Below the pieces are notes generated by a model, which saw only the letters and a list, made by a program, of their open reading frames with translations, was not told where the DNA came from and did not search any database. Shown here piece by piece: positions 2,212-11,553 of a stretch of DNA of 64,000 nt (within the stretch, counting starts at the first letter, position 1; the number at the start of each line of letters is the position of its first letter). The DNA lies in the sequence record NC_029091.1; one strand, written 5' to 3'. The stretch is from Escherichia phage APCEc01. Made by a program: the position numbers and the translations under genes.

Positions 2212-2439
2212 ATGTTAAATCGTTGGATTAAACCTAATAACACATTAGGTGCTTTGATTGCTCAAGAAGTTTCGTTGAAATACGGTCTTGGATATTACGA
2301 TGATGTAGTCGTACACTCATTCATGATGGATGGTGAAGACGTCAAATTTAATGCCGAAATCCGCTGGGATGACGGTGGTGTTCGTTTTGTTCGAGGAACA
2401 ATTAATGCTTACGATACTGAAGAAGTTGTTTGCTGTTAA
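2212..2439 (+). CDS. hypothetical small protein
   Basis: 75 aa from ATG 2212 with RBS GAGGAG; track start 2143 is TTG. Confidence 0.5.
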   Translation: MLNRWIKPNNTLGALIAQEVSLKYGLGYYDDVVVHSFMMDGEDVKFNAEIRWDDGGVRFVRGTINAYDTEEVVCC

Positions 2440-2653: not shown

Positions 2654-2829
2654 ACAAGATAGTTAAATGGTTTAAAAGCTGGGACGATGGTGTCGGTCCA
2701 GAAGATTGGCTGGATGTTCTTGAAGAGAATATGGCTAAAGAATTCAAGAAACATGAAGAAAAGCTCGTCGAAGATGAAGGCGGACGTATTGTAAAACTTT
2801 ATATGGGTGAACCATCGAGGAAATTATAA
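2650..2829 (+). CDS. hypothetical small protein
   Basis: 59 aa; ATG overlaps upstream stop (ATGA). Confidence 0.45.
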   Translation: MNKIVKWFKSWDDGVGPEDWLDVLEENMAKEFKKHEEKLVEDEGGRIVKLYMGEPSRKL

Positions 2830-3293
2830 TGGATGCTATGCTATTTAAAATGTATTTGCTTGAAGCCAAGTCATTTAAACATATACCAGTGGAAGATAAG
2901 ACTCCACTAGAAATAGCTATTCTCATTAACAAAAGTCTAAATAATCCGCAATATATCATAGAAGAATTCTGCAAATTGCAGATTCCTAAAGGTTACAAAA
3001 TTCGTGTAGAGCGAGTTGGAGCTATTACTCATTCTAAAAATTCTCCGTTTAGTCTTGAAGAAGGCATAAAGGACTTAGGTTATGAATCTACGGAAAATGC
3101 CGTTTATGTGAATCCAGAAAAGCGTTTAGATTTGTTTGAAAAGCGAGACCATAAGTATTTTGCCAAAAAATACTTTATTACATCATTAGCAGATTTAATC
3201 CATTTGCAACGAGCTATTTGGAAATTTTTTAAGACAAAAGGTGTAGCGCTAGAAACATTCTCTGAGCAGCCTAGTTTTTATTTAGGTGAATAA
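2829..3293 (+). CDS. hypothetical protein
   Basis: 154 aa; ATG overlaps upstream stop; no motif recognised. Confidence 0.5.
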   Translation: MDAMLFKMYLLEAKSFKHIPVEDKTPLEIAILINKSLNNPQYIIEEFCKLQIPKGYKIRVERVGAITHSKNSPFSLEEGIKDLGYESTENAVYVNPEKRLDLFEKRDHKYFAKKYFITSLADLIHLQRAIWKFFKTKGVALETFSEQPSFYLGE

Positions 3294-4329: not shown

Positions 4330-4938
4330 ATGTTTATGCCGTATAACGAGTGTGAAATTGAAGAAATGGTTCGTCGTGCTCAAAACCCCGAATATCAAGA
4401 TGTATTGCAGTACGAAATTGATAGTCAATTCAACGATAATGAACAAAGCATCCTTTGGCAGTGTATGGAAAACAAGCCAGACTGTATTCAACAGGAGTTA
4501 AGTTCAATCGTTCGTAGAAATTGGACGTCTTCTGTTCCTGAGACAATGTATCGTGGAATCTCTAAGAAAACTATGGCCACACTTGATGATAAAGGCATTG
4601 GTAGTATTATTAAATTTGACAGAGTAATGAGCTTCAGCCCAGTGTTCGGTGTAGCACGTAACTTTGCTTCGTATAATTTTTACGGAACATTTAATATGTT
4701 CTGCATCAAAGATGCACCATTTGCTTTCAACTTCCGTGAACATATGCTTAACATGATTCTGGCTGCGCCATCTTGTGAGTTCAATGGAGCTTTCCCTGAA
4801 GCGACAAGACGGTCTAATGCTAGACTTATATCCGACGAATGTGAATTTATGCTCCCTATAGGGACTACACTGCGTGTAGATTCTATTATTCAAGATGGAC
4901 GTTATACAATCTGGAATCTGTCTATTGTCAGTTACTGA
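4330..4938 (+). CDS. modA: ADP-ribosyltransferase, ModA/ModB family
   Basis: 202 aa; MYRG, SFS, E-C-E-F motif; tandem to the preceding paralog. Confidence 0.6.
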   Translation: MFMPYNECEIEEMVRRAQNPEYQDVLQYEIDSQFNDNEQSILWQCMENKPDCIQQELSSIVRRNWTSSVPETMYRGISKKTMATLDDKGIGSIIKFDRVMSFSPVFGVARNFASYNFYGTFNMFCIKDAPFAFNFREHMLNMILAAPSCEFNGAFPEATRRSNARLISDECEFMLPIGTTLRVDSIIQDGRYTIWNLSIVSY

Positions 4939-5091
4939 CTGAATTGGAATAACCGGATGGAACTCAGAACCATTATAACACATAAAAAATTAAAGCATTT
5001 TACGAAAAAAGAGTGTACACTACCTGAGGGCATGATATTATAAGCTTATCAGCTAAATGACCTTAACGTCCGTAAGACAGAGGAAAATATT

Positions 5092-5838
5092 ATGTTATCA
5101 AATAATAAAATTAACAAAATCAATCGTCGTCTTGACCACACCAGAGCTTCTGCGAAGAGACGCTCTAAGGATTTTAACTTAGACTTTAATTACCTTAAAA
5201 ACATTCTTGATCAAAAGGTCTGCGCTTACTCAGGTGAATCTTTCAATAACTCTGTTGAAGGTGAGAAATTATCCTTAGAACGTTTTAATAACGATATCGG
5301 CTACATTAAAGGTAATGTTATCCCGGTTAAGAAAAAATATAACACGGCTCGTTCTGATTTAACATTAGAAGAACTTATTGAGAAACGTGACGCTGTTGCA
5401 AGACGTATCGCTAATCCTTCTGCCCGTAAAGTAGAGAAACTTAATCTCGACGAGAAGAAATGGGCCCAAATTAAAAAGGTTTATGATACTATTTTAAAAA
5501 TCCGAGCAAAACGTGAAAATCGTGTTAAGCATATGGCGAACATGATGAAAAATCAACCTTTATCTAACGAATCTAAACTTAGAATTGTTGCTTTGAAAGC
5601 ACGCATTAATGGCTCACATCAAGCAGAAGGCCATGAACTTACTAAACTCAACGTTCTTCTTAAAGGCTCTGACTGGAAAACTAAAACTAAATTAACTGAC
5701 GCTGAATCGCTTTTCGATACATATGATAAAGTTATCCAAGGTCTGCAACGTTTTGAAAAGATTGGTTTCATTGGTAAATTAAAATTGAAACGTGGCTTAC
5801 CACTTAGCGCATCATTATTCCAACTGATTAAAGGTTAA
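5092..5838 (+). CDS. Srd-like protein (assigned by position and size)
   Basis: 248 aa, basic; lies between modA and dda as T4 srd does; no sequence confirmation. Confidence 0.4.
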   Translation: MLSNNKINKINRRLDHTRASAKRRSKDFNLDFNYLKNILDQKVCAYSGESFNNSVEGEKLSLERFNNDIGYIKGNVIPVKKKYNTARSDLTLEELIEKRDAVARRIANPSARKVEKLNLDEKKWAQIKKVYDTILKIRAKRENRVKHMANMMKNQPLSNESKLRIVALKARINGSHQAEGHELTKLNVLLKGSDWKTKTKLTDAESLFDTYDKVIQGLQRFEKIGFIGKLKLKRGLPLSASLFQLIKG

Positions 5839-5840
5839 TT

Positions 5841-6152
5841 ATGGTTTATGTATATGCAATAGTTTATCGAGATATGGAAGGATTTACTGTCCCAGTTCCA
5901 CTTGATGAACATCGTCCTGCAGTATTTTTTAGAAAGGATATTGCAGATAAAGTTTTCGATACTTTGAAAACACAGTATAAAACAGATTTAAAAATGGGAG
6001 TTCTAAGAATGGTCGAAACTCCGCGTAAGTTCTGGTTTAATAAGCTTGAAATGAAACACGTTAAACTAGATGCGGAGACGCAAAGATTGTATCAACGAAT
6101 TCTGGACACAGGCCATATTGTTAGTATTCCAATTGCAGGGACTTTACGATGA
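5841..6152 (+). CDS. hypothetical protein (dda.1 position)
   Basis: 103 aa, immediately upstream of and overlapping dda. Confidence 0.5.
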   Translation: MVYVYAIVYRDMEGFTVPVPLDEHRPAVFFRKDIADKVFDTLKTQYKTDLKMGVLRMVETPRKFWFNKLEMKHVKLDAETQRLYQRILDTGHIVSIPIAGTLR

Positions 6153-7462
6153 CATTTGATGATTTGACTGAAGGCCAGAAAAACGCCTTCAACGTTGTTA
6201 TGAACGCTATTAAAGAAAAGAAACATCATGTAACTATTAATGGGCCTGCTGGTACAGGTAAAACAACCCTTACTAGATTCATCGTTGAAGCTCTTATTTC
6301 TGCCGGAGAATCAGGTATTATTTTAGCAGCCCCTACACATGCTGCTAAAAAGGTTCTAAGCAAACTTGCAGGTCAAGAAGCATCGACTATTCATAGCATT
6401 CTTAAAATCAACCCAACTACATACGAAGAAAACGTATTGTTTGAACAGAAAAAGGTTCCCGACTTAGCCTTGTGTCGTGTACTGTTATTTGATGAAGCGT
6501 CAATGTGCGACCGTTCTCTGTTTAAAATAATGTTAGCTAGTATCCCTAAATGGTGCACAGTAATTGGAATCGGCGACCGATGCCAGATTCGACCGGTAGA
6601 CCCAGGCGAATCAACTGCATATCTAAGTCCTTTCTTCACTCACAAAGACTTCGTGCAATGCAACCTTACAGAAGTTAAACGTAGCAATGCACCAATTATT
6701 GATGTTGCGACTGATATTCGTAATGGCAAATGGATTTACGATAAAGTAGTTGATGGACACGGTGTTCACGGATATACAGACCTTAAATCGTATATGATGA
6801 ACTATTTTAACGTCGTTAAAACTCCTGAAGACCTTTTCGAAAATCGAATGATGGCATTCACAAATAAGTCGGTGGACAAGTTAAATTCAATTATTCGCCG
6901 AAAACTTCTTGAAACAGAAAAACCATTTATTAAAGACGAAGTCATTGTTCTACAAGAGCCGTTTACTAAGACGTACAAGCTAGATGGCAAAAATATGACT
7001 GAAATGCTTTTCAATAATGGGCAATTCGTTCGTATTCGAGATGCTGTAGAAACGTCTACATTCGTTAAAGCACGTGGTGTTTCAGGCGAATATATGATAC
7101 GATACTGGAATCTTACAGTAGAAACATATGGGGATGATGAAGAATACATCCGCGAAGATATAAAGGTTATTTCTTCTGAAGAAGAGCTTTATAAATTCAA
7201 TTTGTTTTTGGCTAAGACCGCAGAAACATACAAATTCTGGAATAAAGGCGGTAAAGCTCCATGGAGCGAATTCTGGGATGCTAAACGTATGTTCACTAAG
7301 GTGAAGGCACTACCAGTATCAACCTTCCATAAGGCCCAGGGTATGTCTGTTGACACGGCCTTTGTTTATACACCGTGTATCCATTATGCTGATTCAGAAT
7401 TAGCTAAACAGTTATTGTATGTCGGCACAACTCGTGGTCGTTTTGACGTCCATTTTATTTGA
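6149..7462 (+). CDS. dda: Dda DNA helicase (SF1)
   Basis: 437 aa; Walker A GPAGTGKTT; matches T4 Dda (439 aa). Confidence 0.9.
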   Translation: MTFDDLTEGQKNAFNVVMNAIKEKKHHVTINGPAGTGKTTLTRFIVEALISAGESGIILAAPTHAAKKVLSKLAGQEASTIHSILKINPTTYEENVLFEQKKVPDLALCRVLLFDEASMCDRSLFKIMLASIPKWCTVIGIGDRCQIRPVDPGESTAYLSPFFTHKDFVQCNLTEVKRSNAPIIDVATDIRNGKWIYDKVVDGHGVHGYTDLKSYMMNYFNVVKTPEDLFENRMMAFTNKSVDKLNSIIRRKLLETEKPFIKDEVIVLQEPFTKTYKLDGKNMTEMLFNNGQFVRIRDAVETSTFVKARGVSGEYMIRYWNLTVETYGDDEEYIREDIKVISSEEELYKFNLFLAKTAETYKFWNKGGKAPWSEFWDAKRMFTKVKALPVSTFHKAQGMSVDTAFVYTPCIHYADSELAKQLLYVGTTRGRFDVHFI

Positions 7463-7471
7463 GAGAAAATT

Positions 7472-8149
7472 ATGAGCACTGATGTTATTATAGATTTTGA
7501 AACATTCGGCAATACATCAAAAGCGGCTGTTATTGACCTTGCGGTTATTGCATATAATTCCGACCCTGAAGTTGTTGAATCATTTGAAGAACTTGTTCAA
7601 CGAGGTAAGCGAATTAAATTTAATTTAGCTTCTCAGAAAGGGAAGCGAGTTTTCGCTAAATCCACTATGAAATGGTGGAAAGAACAATCGGCTGAAGCGC
7701 GTAAAAACTTGGCTCCGTCTGAAGACGATGTCACTACGCTTGAAGGCATTAAAATCTTTTTAGACTATTGCCGAGCTAATAAAGTTGACCAATGGAAATC
7801 ACAGATGTGGTGCCGTGGTATGAGCTTTGACTTCCCGATCTTGGTCGATTTGATTCGTGACCTCTATCGTGATGAAGGTGTTCTTGAACCAGAGATTGAT
7901 ACTGATAAATTAGAACCGGTTAAATTCTGGGCTCAACGTGATATTCGTACGGCAATCGAAGCTTACTCGTTGACACGAGGATTAAGTATGTGTCCATTAC
8001 CGATGGGTACGCTAAAAGGATTCGTTGCCCATGATAGTATTCATGATTGTGCTAAAGATATTTTGATGTTAAAATATGCTCAGCGTTATGCGCTTGGCCT
8101 TGAAGATGTCCCTGAGAATCCTGACCCGTTAAGTGTAAAACAGCGATAA
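7472..8149 (+). CDS. dexA: exonuclease A
   Basis: 225 aa; DEDD-type motif IIDFETFG; matches T4 DexA in size and position. Confidence 0.8.
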   Translation: MSTDVIIDFETFGNTSKAAVIDLAVIAYNSDPEVVESFEELVQRGKRIKFNLASQKGKRVFAKSTMKWWKEQSAEARKNLAPSEDDVTTLEGIKIFLDYCRANKVDQWKSQMWCRGMSFDFPILVDLIRDLYRDEGVLEPEIDTDKLEPVKFWAQRDIRTAIEAYSLTRGLSMCPLPMGTLKGFVAHDSIHDCAKDILMLKYAQRYALGLEDVPENPDPLSVKQR

Positions 8150-8154
8150 AACCA

Positions 8155-8184
8155 GTTTACAACCAAGGATGGTTGGAGTATAAT
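8155..8184 (+). promoter_or_regulatory. T4-type early promoter
   Basis: GTTTAC, 18-nt spacer, TATAAT. Confidence 0.6.
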
Positions 8185-8215
8185 CTTTCTATCTTAACCA
8201 AACAGGAAAAACATT

Positions 8216-8710
8216 ATGAATATCAATACTACGGCTACTTACATCCTGAAAGACGAAAAACAAATCAACTGGTACGGTGCTTCAGTGCGAGCTTATGAAA
8301 AGTTTTGTGAAATTTTAGGTGCCACTCAAGGTAATAGTTTCACTATTGTTAACTTCATCAAACAAGCTGAAGGCCCTTGGTTATTCTTAGAAATTAAAAA
8401 TTCACACGGTACAATTTCTACTACCGCCCTTCCAAGCACTGACTTTGAATTGTTGATTGAAGAAGTAGAACCCGTTAAAGACATCTGTATTGATATGGAT
8501 ATCGCTTGTATGTACGGTACTCTGATTAAGCCTATTGAGCCTACTGATTTGTTGTGTAAAGCTGTTTCAATTCGACGTCCGTTCGCAGGTCCAGTGAGTG
8601 GATGGGTAACTGATCAGTGGATTGAAGACGGTGTCGAACTTCTGAACGTTGTTCATGCAGGTGATTTTAGTGTAGTTCCACGTAGTGCTGTGGTTAATAT
8701 TCTAAATTAA
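8216..8710 (+). CDS. hypothetical protein, member A of a tandem paralog family
   Basis: 164 aa; C-terminal GWVTDQWIEDGVELLNVVHAGDFSVVP shared with the next two ORFs. Confidence 0.6.
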   Translation: MNINTTATYILKDEKQINWYGASVRAYEKFCEILGATQGNSFTIVNFIKQAEGPWLFLEIKNSHGTISTTALPSTDFELLIEEVEPVKDICIDMDIACMYGTLIKPIEPTDLLCKAVSIRRPFAGPVSGWVTDQWIEDGVELLNVVHAGDFSVVPRSAVVNILN

Positions 8711-8770
8711 TGTTGTACATCCAAGGATGGATGGAGTATAGTGAATTCAATTTAAACAAAGAGAGAAATT

Positions 8771-9235
8771 ATGATTACTATTGGTGAAATTAAGCGTGTA
8801 TCGACAGCGTCTCGTTCTAAAGCTGCAGGAAAGCTGGTTGAAGTAGTAGGACTTCGTACTAATGGCATGGGCCGTATTAAAGAAGTTAAAGTTCGAATCA
8901 TTCCTAGTTCTGGAAAAACTGAAACTCAGTTCGCCTATGTAAGTCCTAAATTCTTGGAAACTCGTGTAAGTGCCCACTTTGCTTCAAGCGATATCGTTGA
9001 GCCTACTACACAGTTCAAATGGGCCTTGTGTAAAGGTGTTGAATTCCAGACTGATAAAGAATTTGACTTCATCGATGAATACGGTTATCCAAGCAAAACT
9101 GATACTATGTGTGGCTTCATTAGCGACCAATGGGTTGAAGATGGTGAAAAGTTATACAATATCGTATTCTTAGGTGACTTCCGAGTTGTTAAAGAATCTG
9201 AAATCACTCGCTATGTGTCTCCTCGTAAAGCTTAA
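8771..9235 (+). CDS. hypothetical protein, member B of a tandem paralog family
   Basis: 154 aa; ASRSKAAGKLVEV, FKWALC and GFISDQWVEDGEKLYNIVFLGDF shared with member C. Confidence 0.6.
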   Translation: MITIGEIKRVSTASRSKAAGKLVEVVGLRTNGMGRIKEVKVRIIPSSGKTETQFAYVSPKFLETRVSAHFASSDIVEPTTQFKWALCKGVEFQTDKEFDFIDEYGYPSKTDTMCGFISDQWVEDGEKLYNIVFLGDFRVVKESEITRYVSPRKA

Positions 9236-9244
9236 GGAATTATT

Positions 9245-9664
9245 ATGAATATTGTAAATCTCTCTACAGGTGATTACGTATATGTATCTGTTGCTTCTCG
9301 CTCTAAAGTTGCCGGGAAGTTGGTTGAAGTTCTTTCTGTGAGTGATCCGGTTTTTGGACGTAACGAAGTTAAAGTTCGAGATGTTAATGGTAACATTGGT
9401 TACGTCTCAAGTCAGTTTATTGAACCAGAAGAAAAAGCGTTCAAATGGAAACTGTGCAGGTCAGTTTTAGTTGTAAAAGACCATGAATTTACTATTGCTG
9501 CCGCAACTGATGGGTCTCCATGGACAACGAATCAAGTCGCTGGTTTTATTTCAGACCAATGGGTTGAAGATGGTGTTAAGCTTTATAACATCGTTTTCGC
9601 CGGACAGTTCATGGTAGTTCCTGAATTCCAAATCAAAGGATATAGCCAAGCATCTTTTGCATAA
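9245..9664 (+). CDS. hypothetical protein, member C of a tandem paralog family
   Basis: 139 aa; ASRSKVAGKLVEV, FKWKLC and GFISDQWVEDGVKLYNIVFAGQF. Confidence 0.6.
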   Translation: MNIVNLSTGDYVYVSVASRSKVAGKLVEVLSVSDPVFGRNEVKVRDVNGNIGYVSSQFIEPEEKAFKWKLCRSVLVVKDHEFTIAAATDGSPWTTNQVAGFISDQWVEDGVKLYNIVFAGQFMVVPEFQIKGYSQASFA

Positions 9665-9723: not shown

Positions 9724-10248
9724 ATGTTAGTTTACCGCGTAGAACGTAGTTTTTGTACTCAACGTGAATCATTACCAGGAATTGCTATCGAAGACGGTAA
9801 AGCCGTCAGAATTTGGGAAACCTCTTGGAATAAAGAACCTCGCTCGCCATACGGTTGGTCGGGCACCGACAACTCTGAAGAAACATGGGAGTTCCTTAAT
9901 AAGCATGGAATACTCTCAGGTAACTTCTACCATCACGGCGACAACTATAATGTCCCTAATCGTCCTACAGTAAATGAAGACAAACTCCTTGAACAAAATA
10001 TCTTAAGATACTATAGAATTGAGCACACATTTGAATTGAACGAAGATTGGGCTCAAGGGTTCTATTTTGGATTTGAAAGTGTTGACGCGGTTTATGCATG
10101 GTTTGATGACCAGGTGGATGTTGAACTCTTGAAAGCTAAAGGATACTACATCGCGGTCTATGAAGCACCTGATTTCATCCTCGGAAGTTGTCAATTAATG
10201 TTTAGACGTTCATTGGCAGAACAAGTTGATTTTATTTTGCTAAAATGA
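9724..10248 (+). CDS. hypothetical protein
   Basis: 174 aa; own early promoter and RBS GAGGAG. Confidence 0.55.
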   Translation: MLVYRVERSFCTQRESLPGIAIEDGKAVRIWETSWNKEPRSPYGWSGTDNSEETWEFLNKHGILSGNFYHHGDNYNVPNRPTVNEDKLLEQNILRYYRIEHTFELNEDWAQGFYFGFESVDAVYAWFDDQVDVELLKAKGYYIAVYEAPDFILGSCQLMFRRSLAEQVDFILLK

Positions 10249-10305
10249 TGTACAACAACTATGGTCTATGATACTATAGACCTATCAAAACAAGAGGAGA
10301 ATATT

Positions 10306-10533
10306 ATGAAACGTCAAATCATTAAAAACGTAACTACTGATTCAAACATCGATGAGTTTGAAGATGTTCTGTTTAATCCTGATTTAGTTGTTGTACAGAA
10401 AAACTGGACCGAATTTTTATGCTACACTGAAGTGGTTTACGTTTACGAAAAACTCGGTGATGAAATGCCTATCTATGGTATCTTCCGTGAAATCACTGAA
10501 AACGGTACAACTTATTGGAAGGAAACTTACTAA
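10306..10533 (+). CDS. hypothetical small protein
   Basis: 75 aa from ATG 10306 with RBS GAGGAG; the track ATG at 10261 lies inside the promoter. Confidence 0.5.
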
Positions 10534-10943
10534 TGGCTAATAAATTCCGCGTTAACTCATGGTACCAATTTAAAGATAAACGTGCCCAAGAAGAGTTTAT
10601 TAAAGACCATACTGATAATGGGATTTACGCACGACGTCTTGGCATGGAACCATTTAAAGTATTAGATGTTGACCATCTTGGGCGTCCTACTAAAATTGTG
10701 ACATCTACTGGCATGGTTGGATACGCAACAGGCGGTGATATTCTTGATGAAAACTTTATCTGGCTCTCTACTAGTGAAGCAGAGTTTTTTGATGAAGTGG
10801 GAAATCCATATCAAGCGTCCGAAGAGCAAGATTCTGGTGAACTTGACGAATTGTCTGAATTTCCGGTGATGACAATTACTATCGAAAATAACGACCAGGC
10901 ATGGTCTTTGTATCAAATGTTGAAAGCACATTTTAAGGAATAA
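10533..10943 (+). CDS. hypothetical protein
   Basis: 136 aa from ATG 10533 (track start 10515 is TTG); acidic C-terminus. Confidence 0.5.
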
Positions 10944-11127: not shown

Positions 11128-11553
11128 ATGGCTTTTAAAGGTTTTGAAGTTGGTAAGAAATATCGTATTATCAAAGGACAGGAAGATAATTTCTTGAGAA
11201 TTCTTAATACGACGGGTAAACATCTTAATACTAATCTGCATACTACTTTATTGTCCAAAGATTTTATTGTGGAAGAGATGATTGGTTATGGTGTTTCGGT
11301 TATTGCTGTAGAAGCCGTAGGCGATTATGGCCGAACTATTCATAGTATGCAAGGTGATATTCTGCTTTATGGTGCAGAATTTAAATTCTTTGAAGAAGTT
11401 CAGGAACCAGATACAGCTGTCGATTTCAAAAAAGGCTCTATAGAATTTGTTGATGGTTCGGTGATCGTATCAGGCGATGTGGTCATTACAGTTAAAAGTG
11501 AACAAGGGCGTTTGGCTGCAATTGATGCACTTCAGAAAATTAAATTTAAATAA
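11128..11553 (+). CDS. hypothetical protein (goF position)
   Basis: 141 aa immediately upstream of gene 39; size and position match T4 goF; no sequence confirmation. Confidence 0.4.
   Translation: MAFKGFEVGKKYRIIKGQEDNFLRILNTTGKHLNTNLHTTLLSKDFIVEEMIGYGVSVIAVEAVGDYGRTIHSMQGDILLYGAEFKFFEEVQEPDTAVDFKKGSIEFVDGSVIVSGDVVITVKSEQGRLAAIDALQKIKFK

What the first reader, a model, noticed from the sequence alone, without database searches (positions are those of the whole stretch)
8216..9664. Tandem triplet of paralogous small proteins sharing a C-terminal DQW(I/V)EDG...VV module
Three consecutive early ORFs (164, 154 and 139 aa) end with the same roughly 30-aa module (G(W/F)(V/I)(T/S)DQW(I/V)EDG..L.N(V/I)V..G.F.VV). 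Members B and C also share N-terminal ASRSK(A/V)AGKLVEV and FKW.LC blocks. Local gene amplification with N-terminal divergence is typical of rapidly evolving host-interaction or anti-defence families. I cannot match the module to a characterised T4 protein.
Basis: seen in the sequence. Interest (0 to 1): 0.5.

Follow-up and report, generated by a model that had tools for sequence, protein, structure and literature searches.

The report
Known phage motB.1–motB–motB-like gene cluster
The three neighbouring small genes are the already described motB.1, motB and second motB-like early genes of an RB69-type (T4-like) phage, which share a C-terminal domain; that is ordinary for these phages, though the domain models as a Tudor/SH3-like barrel rather than the OB-fold proposed earlier.

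Summary
Three adjacent + strand ORFs, A (8216-8710), B (8771-9235) and C (9245-9664), end in the same ~30-aa module (A/B E=3e-11, A/C 1e-11, B/C 6e-32). It is not unmatched: all three pass the Pfam gathering score for PF17613 (motB). The window is a Mosigvirus (RB69-like), and the genes lie where T4 has motB.1 and motB, between dexA and cef/goF/gene 39. A is the MotB.1 orthologue, B is MotB, and C is the second MotB-like gene (RB69ORF010c).

Patterson-West et al. 2021 (PMC7827196) already reported that MotB and MotB.1 share a C-terminal domain behind different N-terminal domains, and that RB69 has two motB genes plus motB.1. All three genes are under purifying selection (dN/dS 0.04-0.33) and the duplications are old, so this is not a fast-evolving amplification.

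New here, and modest:
- The shared domain models confidently (pLDDT 93.5) as a Tudor/SH3-like barrel, not an OB-fold.
- It is acidic, while MotB's N-terminal domain is strongly basic.
- The T4 reference motB.1 (119 aa) is truncated by one extra G that 13 other T4-lineage records lack.
- RB69's "29-aa peptide" is the split-off tail of motB.1.

Verdict: already known, low interest.

The parts
8156..8184 (+). T4-early-type sigma-70 promoter-like site (TTTACA-17-TATAAT) upstream of gene A
   Evidence: Matches 11 of 12 consensus positions. The sequence GTTTACAaccaaggatggttggagTATAAT is shown. The region as a whole is not enriched for promoter-like sites (16 found against 18 expected), so this rests on position and match quality only.
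8216..8710 (+). Gene A: intact MotB.1 orthologue, 164 aa. MotB.1-type N-terminal domain (about residues 1-82), linker with the DMDIACMYGTLIKPIE motif, then a MotB-type C-terminal barrel.
   Evidence: phrog_2333, E=2.7e-82 over the full length. PF17613 scores 35.9 bits on residues 84-159, above the cut-off of 25. 37% identity to T4 MotB.1, E=1e-27. Annotated 'similar to MotB.1' in PhAPEC2. dN/dS 0.04-0.06.
8492..8539 (+). Conserved linker motif DMDIACMYGTLIKPIE in A (residues 93-108). It is absent from T4 MotB.1 and sits at other positions in relatives.
   Evidence: The same motif is N-terminal in P0127, P0128 and P0136, internal in P0134, and in the linker of KOW-type relatives P0132, P0138, P0139 and P0142.
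8600..8677 (+). Shared module in A: GWVTDQWIEDGVELLNVVHAGDFSVV (residues 129-154)
8714..8742 (+). Weaker promoter-like site (TGTACA-17-TATAGT) upstream of gene B, paralogous to the one upstream of A
   Evidence: Matches 9 of 12 positions. The two upstream regions share CCAAGGATGG(T/A)TGGAGTATA. Some relatives annotate this stretch as an N-terminal extension of MotB. In this window it is out of frame with the ATG at 8771.
8771..9235 (+). Gene B: MotB orthologue, 154 aa. Basic KOW-like N-terminal barrel (1-62), disordered linker (67-79), C-terminal barrel (82-154).
   Evidence: PF17613 scores 136.6 bits over the full length. phrog_1671, E=1.1e-65. 48% identity to T4 MotB, E=2e-45. AF2 model with pLDDT 80.4. 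N-terminal domain net charge +8, pI 10.7.
9113..9190 (+). Shared module in B: GFISDQWVEDGEKLYNIVFLGDFRVV (residues 115-140). It forms the end of beta2, the turn, beta3 and beta4 of the barrel.
9245..9664 (+). Gene C: second MotB-like paralogue (RB69ORF010c type), 139 aa. Uncharged KOW-like N-terminal domain with a shortened hairpin, almost no linker, and the same C-terminal barrel. It starts 9 nt after the stop of B, so it is probably co-transcribed with B.
   Evidence: PF17613 scores 81.6 bits. phrog_1671, E=9.2e-51. 44% identity to B and 39% to T4 MotB. Annotated as MotB-like in RB69, PhAPEC2 and ime09. dN/dS 0.09-0.21. Junction sequence.
9542..9619 (+). Shared module in C: GFISDQWVEDGVKLYNIVFAGQFMVV (residues 100-125)

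Best explanation
Identity (high confidence): this is the motB.1 - motB - motB-like early-gene cluster of a Mosigvirus (RB69-like T4-type phage). It lies between dexA and the motB.2-like/cef/goF/gene 39 block.

Architecture: all three proteins are built from two small beta-barrels. They share a C-terminal barrel, modelled here as Tudor/SH3-like. The N-terminal barrels differ. B has a strongly basic KOW-like barrel, C has an uncharged, shortened KOW-like barrel, and A has a MotB.1-type barrel, reported as LSm-like by others.

Shown by others for T4 MotB: it binds DNA tightly without sequence specificity, co-purifies with the host nucleoid proteins H-NS and StpA, changes the H-NS footprint on DNA, de-represses part of the H-NS regulon, is toxic when overproduced, and doubles burst size.

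Inferred here: B does the same job in this phage. The basic N-terminal barrel is the more likely DNA-binding part. The acidic shared C-terminal barrel is more likely a common docking or oligomerisation module, through which the three paralogues act on one partner or on each other. A (pI 4.6) and C (pI 5.4) are therefore unlikely to be plain DNA coaters like MotB.
For: Family and orthology:
- PF17613 is above the gathering score for all three proteins, and the PHROG families agree.
- Identity to T4 proteins is 48% for B against MotB, 37% for A against MotB.1 and 39% for C against MotB.
- The gene order matches T4, RB69, PhAPEC2 and ime09 annotations.
- The window is 96-98% identical to Mosigvirus genomes.

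Published statements:
- The shared C-terminal domain and RB69's two motB genes plus motB.1: PMC7827196, section 3.2.
- MotB biochemistry: abstracts of PMC6070864 and PMC7827196.
- LSm-like N-terminal domain of MotB.1: PMC12152347.

Structure:
- The full-length B model has pLDDT 80 with two beta domains and a disordered linker.
- The C-terminal domain alone has pLDDT 93.5 and pTM 0.77, with five strands and a short helical turn between beta4 and beta5.

Charge: B N-terminal domain +8 (pI 10.7). Shared C-terminal domains -4, -2 and -1. Whole A has pI 4.6 and whole C pI 5.4.

All three genes are maintained:
- dN/dS is 0.04-0.33.
- The module occurs in 777 phage records at 1670 places.
- The best match to the C query is at least 60% identical in 283 records, which I read as presence of a C-type copy. 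Sampled Mosigvirus and some Tequatrovirus records have three places each.
Against: - No experiment exists for any Mosigvirus copy or for the C-type paralogue.
- Which MotB domain binds DNA has never been mapped. T4 MotB's own C-terminal domain is nearly neutral (+1), so a DNA-binding role for it is not excluded. The authors of PMC7827196 consider either domain possible.
- Co-purification with H-NS may be indirect, through DNA.
- T4 motB.1 deletion has no phenotype in the laboratory (PMC12152347).
- The docking-module idea rests only on charge and fold. No multimer prediction could be run.
- The alignments behind the models are shallow (20 and 12 sequences).
Confidence: 0.8

Rival explanations
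1. The shared C-terminal barrel is itself the nucleic-acid-binding domain, as proposed when it was predicted to be a cold-shock-type OB-fold. On this view all three paralogues are nucleoid-coating DNA or RNA binders that differ only in their accessory N-terminal domains.
Confidence: 0.25
2. One reading: a recently amplified, rapidly diversifying anti-defence or host-interaction family engaged in an arms race.
For: The genes are early and lie in a dispensable region. Copy number varies between one and three places per genome. N-terminal domains are swapped among relatives, and B/C chimeras exist in metagenomes. MotB does act on a host xenogeneic silencer, H-NS.
Against: dN/dS is 0.04-0.33 for all three genes. 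Paralogues are saturated at synonymous sites, so the duplication is old. The C-type copy is kept at about 85% protein identity between Mosigvirus and some Tequatrovirus genomes. No named anti-defence match was found. PADLOC, which covers defence proteins only, gave nothing. The family comprises only about 30 clusters at 50% identity among 1.84 billion representative proteins.
Confidence: 0.12
3. C, or A, is a decaying duplicate with no function of its own.
For: C has lost part of the N-terminal hairpin and the whole linker relative to B. The motB.1 genes of reference T4 and reference RB69 carry frameshifts.
Against: Both ORFs are intact here. C has dN/dS 0.09-0.21 and A 0.04-0.06. A C-type copy is inferred in about 283 phage records. 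The T4 frameshift is absent from 13 other T4-lineage records, and the RB69 frameshifts are absent from this window, moskry and PhAPEC2.
Confidence: 0.03
4. The similarity is chance or low-complexity.
For: None found.
Against: Pairwise E-values are 1e-11 to 6e-32. All three proteins exceed the Pfam gathering score. The module is the structured core of a confidently modelled barrel.
Confidence: 0.01

Closest known systems
T4 MotB (modifier of transcription; Pfam PF17613; Patterson-West et al. 2018 and 2021)
   Same: B is a full-length orthologue: 48% identity, the same two-domain layout, and the same position downstream of motB.1. C is a second full-length paralogue of the same family.
   Different: B has a shorter linker. 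C lacks the linker and part of the N-terminal hairpin, and its N-terminal domain is uncharged rather than basic. T4 has one motB; this phage has two. The C-terminal domain modelled here resembles Tudor/SH3-like barrels, not the OB-fold predicted by HHpred in 2021.
T4 MotB.1 (phrog_2333; 'Category 2' of Patterson-West 2021; LSm-like-fold family of Kim et al. 2025)
   Same: A is the orthologue: 37% identity over the N-terminal domain and the start of the C-terminal domain, and the same position immediately upstream of motB.
   Different: A is 164 aa, with a 20-aa linker insertion that includes most of the DMDIACMYGTLIKPIE motif, and a complete C-terminal barrel. The reference T4 annotation (119 aa) stops inside the barrel because of a 1-nt insertion. 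Other T4 records encode 143 aa.
RB69 ORF010c, motB, motB.1 and ORF012c
   Same: Same genus, same gene order and the same three paralogues. This window is essentially the RB69 arrangement.
   Different: In the RB69 reference, motB.1 is split into a 132-aa ORF and a 29-aa ORF by two single-T insertions. Here it is one intact 164-aa ORF.
Tudor / chromo / PWWP / KOW SH3-like small beta-barrels (for example 53BP1 Tudor, PHF19 Tudor, Spt5 KOW)
   Different: There is no detectable sequence relationship (6-20% identity). No methyl-lysine aromatic cage was tested. The resemblance is one of fold, not evidence of family membership or shared function.

Membership tests
Pfam PF17613 (motB, modifier of transcription) | Whole-protein score above the curated gathering score (25 bits) | tested here: met
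   A scores 35.9 bits (C-terminal part only), B 136.6 bits (full length) and C 81.6 bits. All 120 listed homologues also carry PF17613.
MotB proper ('Category 1' of PMC7827196) | KOW-like N-terminal domain (SRSKAAGKLVEV block) together with the conserved C-terminal domain | tested here: met
   Met for B and C. Not met for A, whose N-terminal domain is of MotB.1 type.
MotB proper | Position among the early genes between dexA and cef/goF/gene 39 | tested here: met
   The only difference from T4 is the position of the motB.2-like gene, which follows C here and follows dexA in T4 and ime09.
MotB proper | Non-specific DNA binding, co-purification with H-NS/StpA, and toxicity on overexpression | not testable with these tools
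   Known only for T4 MotB (PMC6070864, PMC7827196). It is inferred for B by orthology and is open for C.
MotB.1 (phrog_2333) | Full-length profile match and similarity to T4 MotB.1 across the N-terminal domain | tested here: met
   A matches phrog_2333 with E=2.7e-82 over residues 1-164. BLASTP to T4 MotB.1 gives E=1e-27.
MotB.1 / GoF / Frd.2 LSm-like-fold family (PMC12152347) | N-terminal five-stranded bent beta-sheet (LSm-like fold) | not tested
A is orthologous to T4 MotB.1. The ORF at 11128-11553 gives a weak phrog_2333 match (E=6.6e-4). Pairwise BLAST of A's N-terminal domain against that ORF finds nothing significant.
OB-fold, cold-shock DNA-binding type (prediction of PMC7827196 for the C-terminal domain) | OB topology and structural neighbours that are OB-fold proteins | tested here: not met
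Tudor / 'Royal family' domains | SH3-like barrel fold | tested here: met
Tudor / 'Royal family' domains | Sequence homology, or an aromatic cage that binds methylated lysine or arginine | not tested
   Identity to the hits is 6-20%. A profile search of PDB sequences found nothing. Cage geometry could not be inspected. I therefore do not file the domain as a Tudor family member.

The most novel reading that the evidence does not exclude
The shared barrel is not MotB's DNA-binding domain. It is an acidic Tudor-like docking or heteromerisation module. Through it, three paralogues carrying different N-terminal barrels (basic KOW-like, uncharged KOW-like, and LSm-like) are brought to one common partner, such as H-NS/StpA filaments or RNA polymerase, or assemble with each other. 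On this view motB.1, motB and motB-like act as one modular nucleoid-remodelling system rather than as independent genes. A consequence would be that published negative results for T4 MotB.1 came from a truncated, barrel-less synthetic protein.
Probability: 0.2. Interest if true: 0.45.

Novelty: already known. Interest (0 to 1): 0.15.

Why it matters
The finding itself adds little. The family, its shared C-terminal domain and the extra copy in RB69-type phages were published in 2021. Four practical points came out of the check.
1. The shared domain is better described as a Tudor/SH3-like barrel than as an OB-fold, and it is acidic. That shifts the likely DNA-binding activity of MotB to its basic KOW-like N-terminal domain.
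2. The reference T4 genome carries a one-base insertion that truncates motB.1 inside this barrel. A 2025 study synthesised genes from that reference, and its 13.8-kDa MotB.1 matches the 119-aa form.
3. The "29-aa peptide category" of the 2021 phylogeny is the split-off tail of motB.1 in the RB69 reference, produced by frameshifts there.
4. The family is tiny and confined to T4-like phages, about 30 clusters among 1.84 billion representative proteins.

Tried and rejected
- **Fourth copy of the module.** A six-frame tblastn with whole proteins and C-terminal tails, plus a regex scan of the 64-kb window, found none. The best extra hits had E>0.04.
- **Internal duplication.** There was one weak match between the tail of B and the junction region of C (9398-9493, E=0.005). 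It aligns non-equivalent strands, so I treat it as chance.
- **Defence, NCBIfam and PDB sequence searches.** None gave a usable match.
- **Pairwise BLAST among N-terminal-domain relatives.** I compared A's N-terminal domain with the ORF at 11128-11553, and GoF with that ORF. Nothing was significant. Only profile-level links exist.
- **BFVD viral fold search.** It returned only MotB/MotB.1 relatives at significant E-values, followed by weak uncharacterised hits.
- **Promoter and terminator scan.** The region is not enriched for promoter-like sites (16 found against 18 expected). Only the site upstream of A is a strong match. The terminator-like hairpin at 8678-8693 lies inside gene A and is weak.
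- **Rejected readings.** Chance similarity, pseudogenes and a recent amplification are rejected on the evidence given under the rival explanations.

Full report
**Observation.** The three ORFs exist exactly as described: A 8216-8710 (164 aa), B 8771-9235 (154 aa) and C 9245-9664 (139 aa), all on the + strand. BLASTP gives A/B E=3e-11 and A/C E=1e-11, the latter with 62% identity over 29 residues. B/C gives E=6e-32 with 44% identity over the full length, including the ASRSK(A/V)AGKLVEV and FKW.LC blocks. A six-frame search of the whole window finds no fourth copy.

**What the genes are.** The window is a Mosigvirus, an RB69-like T4-type phage. The segment 7400-11700 is 96-98% identical to KAW3E185, MM02, mar005P1, moskry, PhAPEC2 and others. 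The local gene order is:
- dda (6149-7462)
- dexA (7472-8149)
- A, B and C
- a MotB.2-like ORF (9724-10248)
- cef and goF
- a zinc-ribbon ORF of the 39.2 type
- an RB69ORF005c-like ORF
- gene 39

All three proteins pass the Pfam gathering score for PF17613, 'motB, modifier of transcription'. A scores 35.9 bits over its C-terminal half, B 136.6 bits over the full length, and C 81.6 bits. PHROGs places B and C in phrog_1671 (MotB-like) and A in phrog_2333, with E=2.7e-82. Against T4 itself, B is 48% identical to MotB, C is 39% identical to MotB, and A is 37% identical to MotB.1. Deposited annotations say the same. PhAPEC2 labels the three genes 'similar to MotB.1', 'MotB' and 'MotB'. RB69 labels them motB.1, motB and ORF010c.

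**Prior literature.** Patterson-West et al. 2021 (PMC7827196, section 3.2) aligned 102 phage homologues. [quoted passage not shown] Kim et al. 2025 (PMC12152347) assigned the MotB.1 N-terminal domain to an LSm-like fold family together with GoF and Frd.2. The core of the finding is therefore already published.

**Evolution.**
- *Selection:* Nei-Gojobori estimates against moskry, PhAPEC2, RB69 and ime09 give dN/dS of 0.04-0.06 for A, 0.15-0.33 for B and 0.09-0.21 for C. Between paralogues, synonymous sites are saturated. All three genes are thus maintained by purifying selection, and the duplications are old.
- *Copy number:* A tblastn of the C tail against 50,697 phage records finds the module in 777 records at 1670 places. 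In 283 records the best match is at least 60% identical, which I read as a C-type copy being present. Sampled records show three places in Mosigvirus and a subset of Tequatrovirus (ime09, RB10, PP01, HX01), mostly two in other Tequatrovirus records including T4 relatives, and one in the Klebsiella, Enterobacter and Yersinia MHG19 phage records sampled.
- *Family size:* A profile of the C-terminal domain, searched against 1.84 billion representative proteins, returns only 34 clusters with E<=1e-3. About 28 of these are genuine, and all are small proteins.
- *Modularity:* The barrel is combined with KOW-like domains, MotB.1-type domains or other N-terminal domains. Metagenomic proteins include B/C chimeras (P0024, P0025, P0062). 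Evolution here proceeds by module shuffling, not by rapid point divergence.

**Structure.**
- *Full-length B:* AlphaFold2 on a 20-sequence alignment gives pLDDT 80.4. The model has an N-terminal beta domain (1-62), a disordered linker (67-79) and a C-terminal beta domain.
- *C-terminal domain alone:* The 75-residue domain gives pLDDT 93.5 and pTM 0.77. It has five strands and a short helical turn between beta4 and beta5.
- *Limits:* No relative has a solved structure. Fold resemblance is not membership: sequence identity to the hits is 6-20%, and no aromatic cage was examined.

**Mechanism.** For T4 MotB, others have shown the following (PMC6070864, PMC7827196):
- tight, non-specific binding to modified and unmodified DNA
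- co-purification with H-NS and StpA
- an altered H-NS footprint on DNA
- up-regulation of 75 host genes, about a third of them in the H-NS regulon
- toxicity on overexpression
- a two-fold gain in burst size

By orthology I assign this role to B. A charge analysis adds an inference. B's KOW-like N-terminal domain carries +8 (pI 10.7). The shared C-terminal barrels carry -4 (B), -2 (A) and -1 (C). Whole A has pI 4.6 and whole C pI 5.4. The basic N-terminal barrel is therefore the more likely DNA-binding element. The acidic shared barrel is more likely a common docking or oligomerisation module. The rival view, that the barrel is the nucleic-acid binder, is not excluded, because T4 MotB's C-terminal domain is +1. 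I put identity at about 0.9 and this mechanistic split at about 0.4.

**Expression signals.**
- A strong T4-early-type promoter match (TTTACA-17-TATAAT, 11 of 12 positions) lies at 8156-8184, upstream of A.
- A weaker site lies at 8714-8742, upstream of B. The two upstream regions share CCAAGGATGG(T/A)TGGAGTATA, so the duplication seems to have included the promoter.
- Some relatives annotate this promoter region as an N-terminal extension of MotB (175 aa in moskry; P0001 and others). In this window that reading frame is out of phase with the ATG at 8771, which supports 8771 as the start.
- C starts 9 nt after B's stop and probably shares B's transcript.
- The match to T4 early promoters rests on my own knowledge of that consensus. 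The scan itself shows no enrichment of promoter-like sites in the region.

**Side findings.**
1. *T4 reference frameshift.* In the T4 reference (NC_000866.4 and AF158101.6), motB.1 (119 aa) ends ...GWVTDQWIGRWR*. The remainder of the barrel (EDGVELLNVVHAGEYSVVPRSAVVAILN*) follows in another frame. The cause is one extra G: GGATTGGAAGATGG against GGATTGAAGATGG. Thirteen other T4, T4T, RB55 and RB59 records encode an uninterrupted 143-aa protein, and only the two reference entries need two alignment pieces. Kim et al. 2025 state that gene synthesis was done commercially unless otherwise indicated, cite NC_000866.4 coordinates for their amber constructs, and report MotB.1 as 13.8 kDa. That mass is the 119-aa form; the 143-aa form is 16.2 kDa. 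Their heterologous MotB.1 therefore probably lacked strands beta3-beta5 of the barrel.
2. *RB69 29-aa peptide.* RB69's ORF012c, the 'Category 3' peptide of the 2021 paper, lies directly downstream of a 132-aa motB.1. Two single-T insertions relative to this window separate the two ORFs, so the peptide is the split-off tail of motB.1.
3. *Linker motif.* A carries the motif DMDIACMYGTLIKPIE (8492-8539), which T4 MotB.1 lacks. The motif recurs at different positions in relatives.

**Verdict.** However, the family is the known MotB/MotB.1 family, the arrangement is the known RB69 arrangement, and there is no sign of rapid evolution or anti-defence function. Novelty: already known. Interest: low. 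There are modest corrections to the literature on the fold of the shared domain, the T4 reference frameshift and the RB69 peptide.

Noticed in passing
L003 (T4 NC_000866.4) 2215-2360, minus strand; compare window 8570-8713: The reference T4 motB.1 carries one extra G (GGATTGGAAGATGG against GGATTGAAGATGG). This truncates the protein to 119 aa inside the shared barrel. Thirteen other T4, T4T, RB55 and RB59 records encode an intact 143-aa protein. A 2025 study synthesised genes commercially, cites the reference sequence and reports MotB.1 as 13.8 kDa, which is the 119-aa form.
   Followed up: yes
L004 (RB69 NC_004928) 4877-5373; compare window 8216-8710: RB69's 29-aa ORF012c, treated as a separate 'Category 3' peptide in PMC7827196, is the C-terminal tail of motB.1. 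Two single-T insertions in the RB69 reference split it off. The gene is one intact 164-aa ORF in this window, in moskry and in PhAPEC2.
   Followed up: yes
window 8146-8221 and 8705-8776: The upstream regions of A and B are paralogous. They share CCAAGGATGG(T/A)TGGAGTATA across the -35 to -10 interval, so the duplication probably included the early promoter. Several database entries translate B's promoter region as an N-terminal extension (MLYIQGWMEYNEFNLNKER...), which is out of frame in this window.
   Followed up: partly
window 8492-8539 (A residues 93-108): A short conserved motif, DMDIACMYGTLIKPIE, sits in A's linker and is absent from T4 MotB.1. It is N-terminal in P0127, P0128 and P0136, internal in P0134, and in the linker of KOW-type relatives P0132, P0138, P0139 and P0142. 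It may be a mobile short interaction motif. Its function is unknown.
   Followed up: partly
P0024, P0025, P0062 (metagenomic homologues of window 8771-9664): These are chimeric proteins with a B-type or T4-MotB-type N-terminal part and a C-type C-terminal part. They point to recombination between the tandem paralogues, which would collapse two genes into one.
   Followed up: no
window 10515-10943 and 11128-11553: The goF orthologue and the RB69ORF005c-like ORF both match phrog_622. The second also matches phrog_2333, the family of A's N-terminal domain, weakly (E=6.6e-4). This fits the published GoF/MotB.1/Frd.2 LSm-like-fold family being present in several copies in this 3-kb stretch. Pairwise BLAST does not detect the relationship.
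   Followed up: partly
window 10261-10533 and 10515-10943: The mechanical ORF starts for cef (ATG 10261, 90 aa) and goF (TTG 10515) are probably too far upstream. The Pfam T4_Cef match begins at residue 16, and relatives annotate a 75-aa Cef and a 136/137-aa GoF. The GoF start would then be the ATG at about 10533, overlapping the cef stop.
   Followed up: no
window 9724-10248; L005 (ime09) 623-1123; L003 (T4) 2662-3162: The motB.2-like gene lies downstream of the motB paralogues in this Mosigvirus. In T4 and ime09 it lies between dexA and motB.1, so there has been a local rearrangement within the cluster.
   Followed up: no
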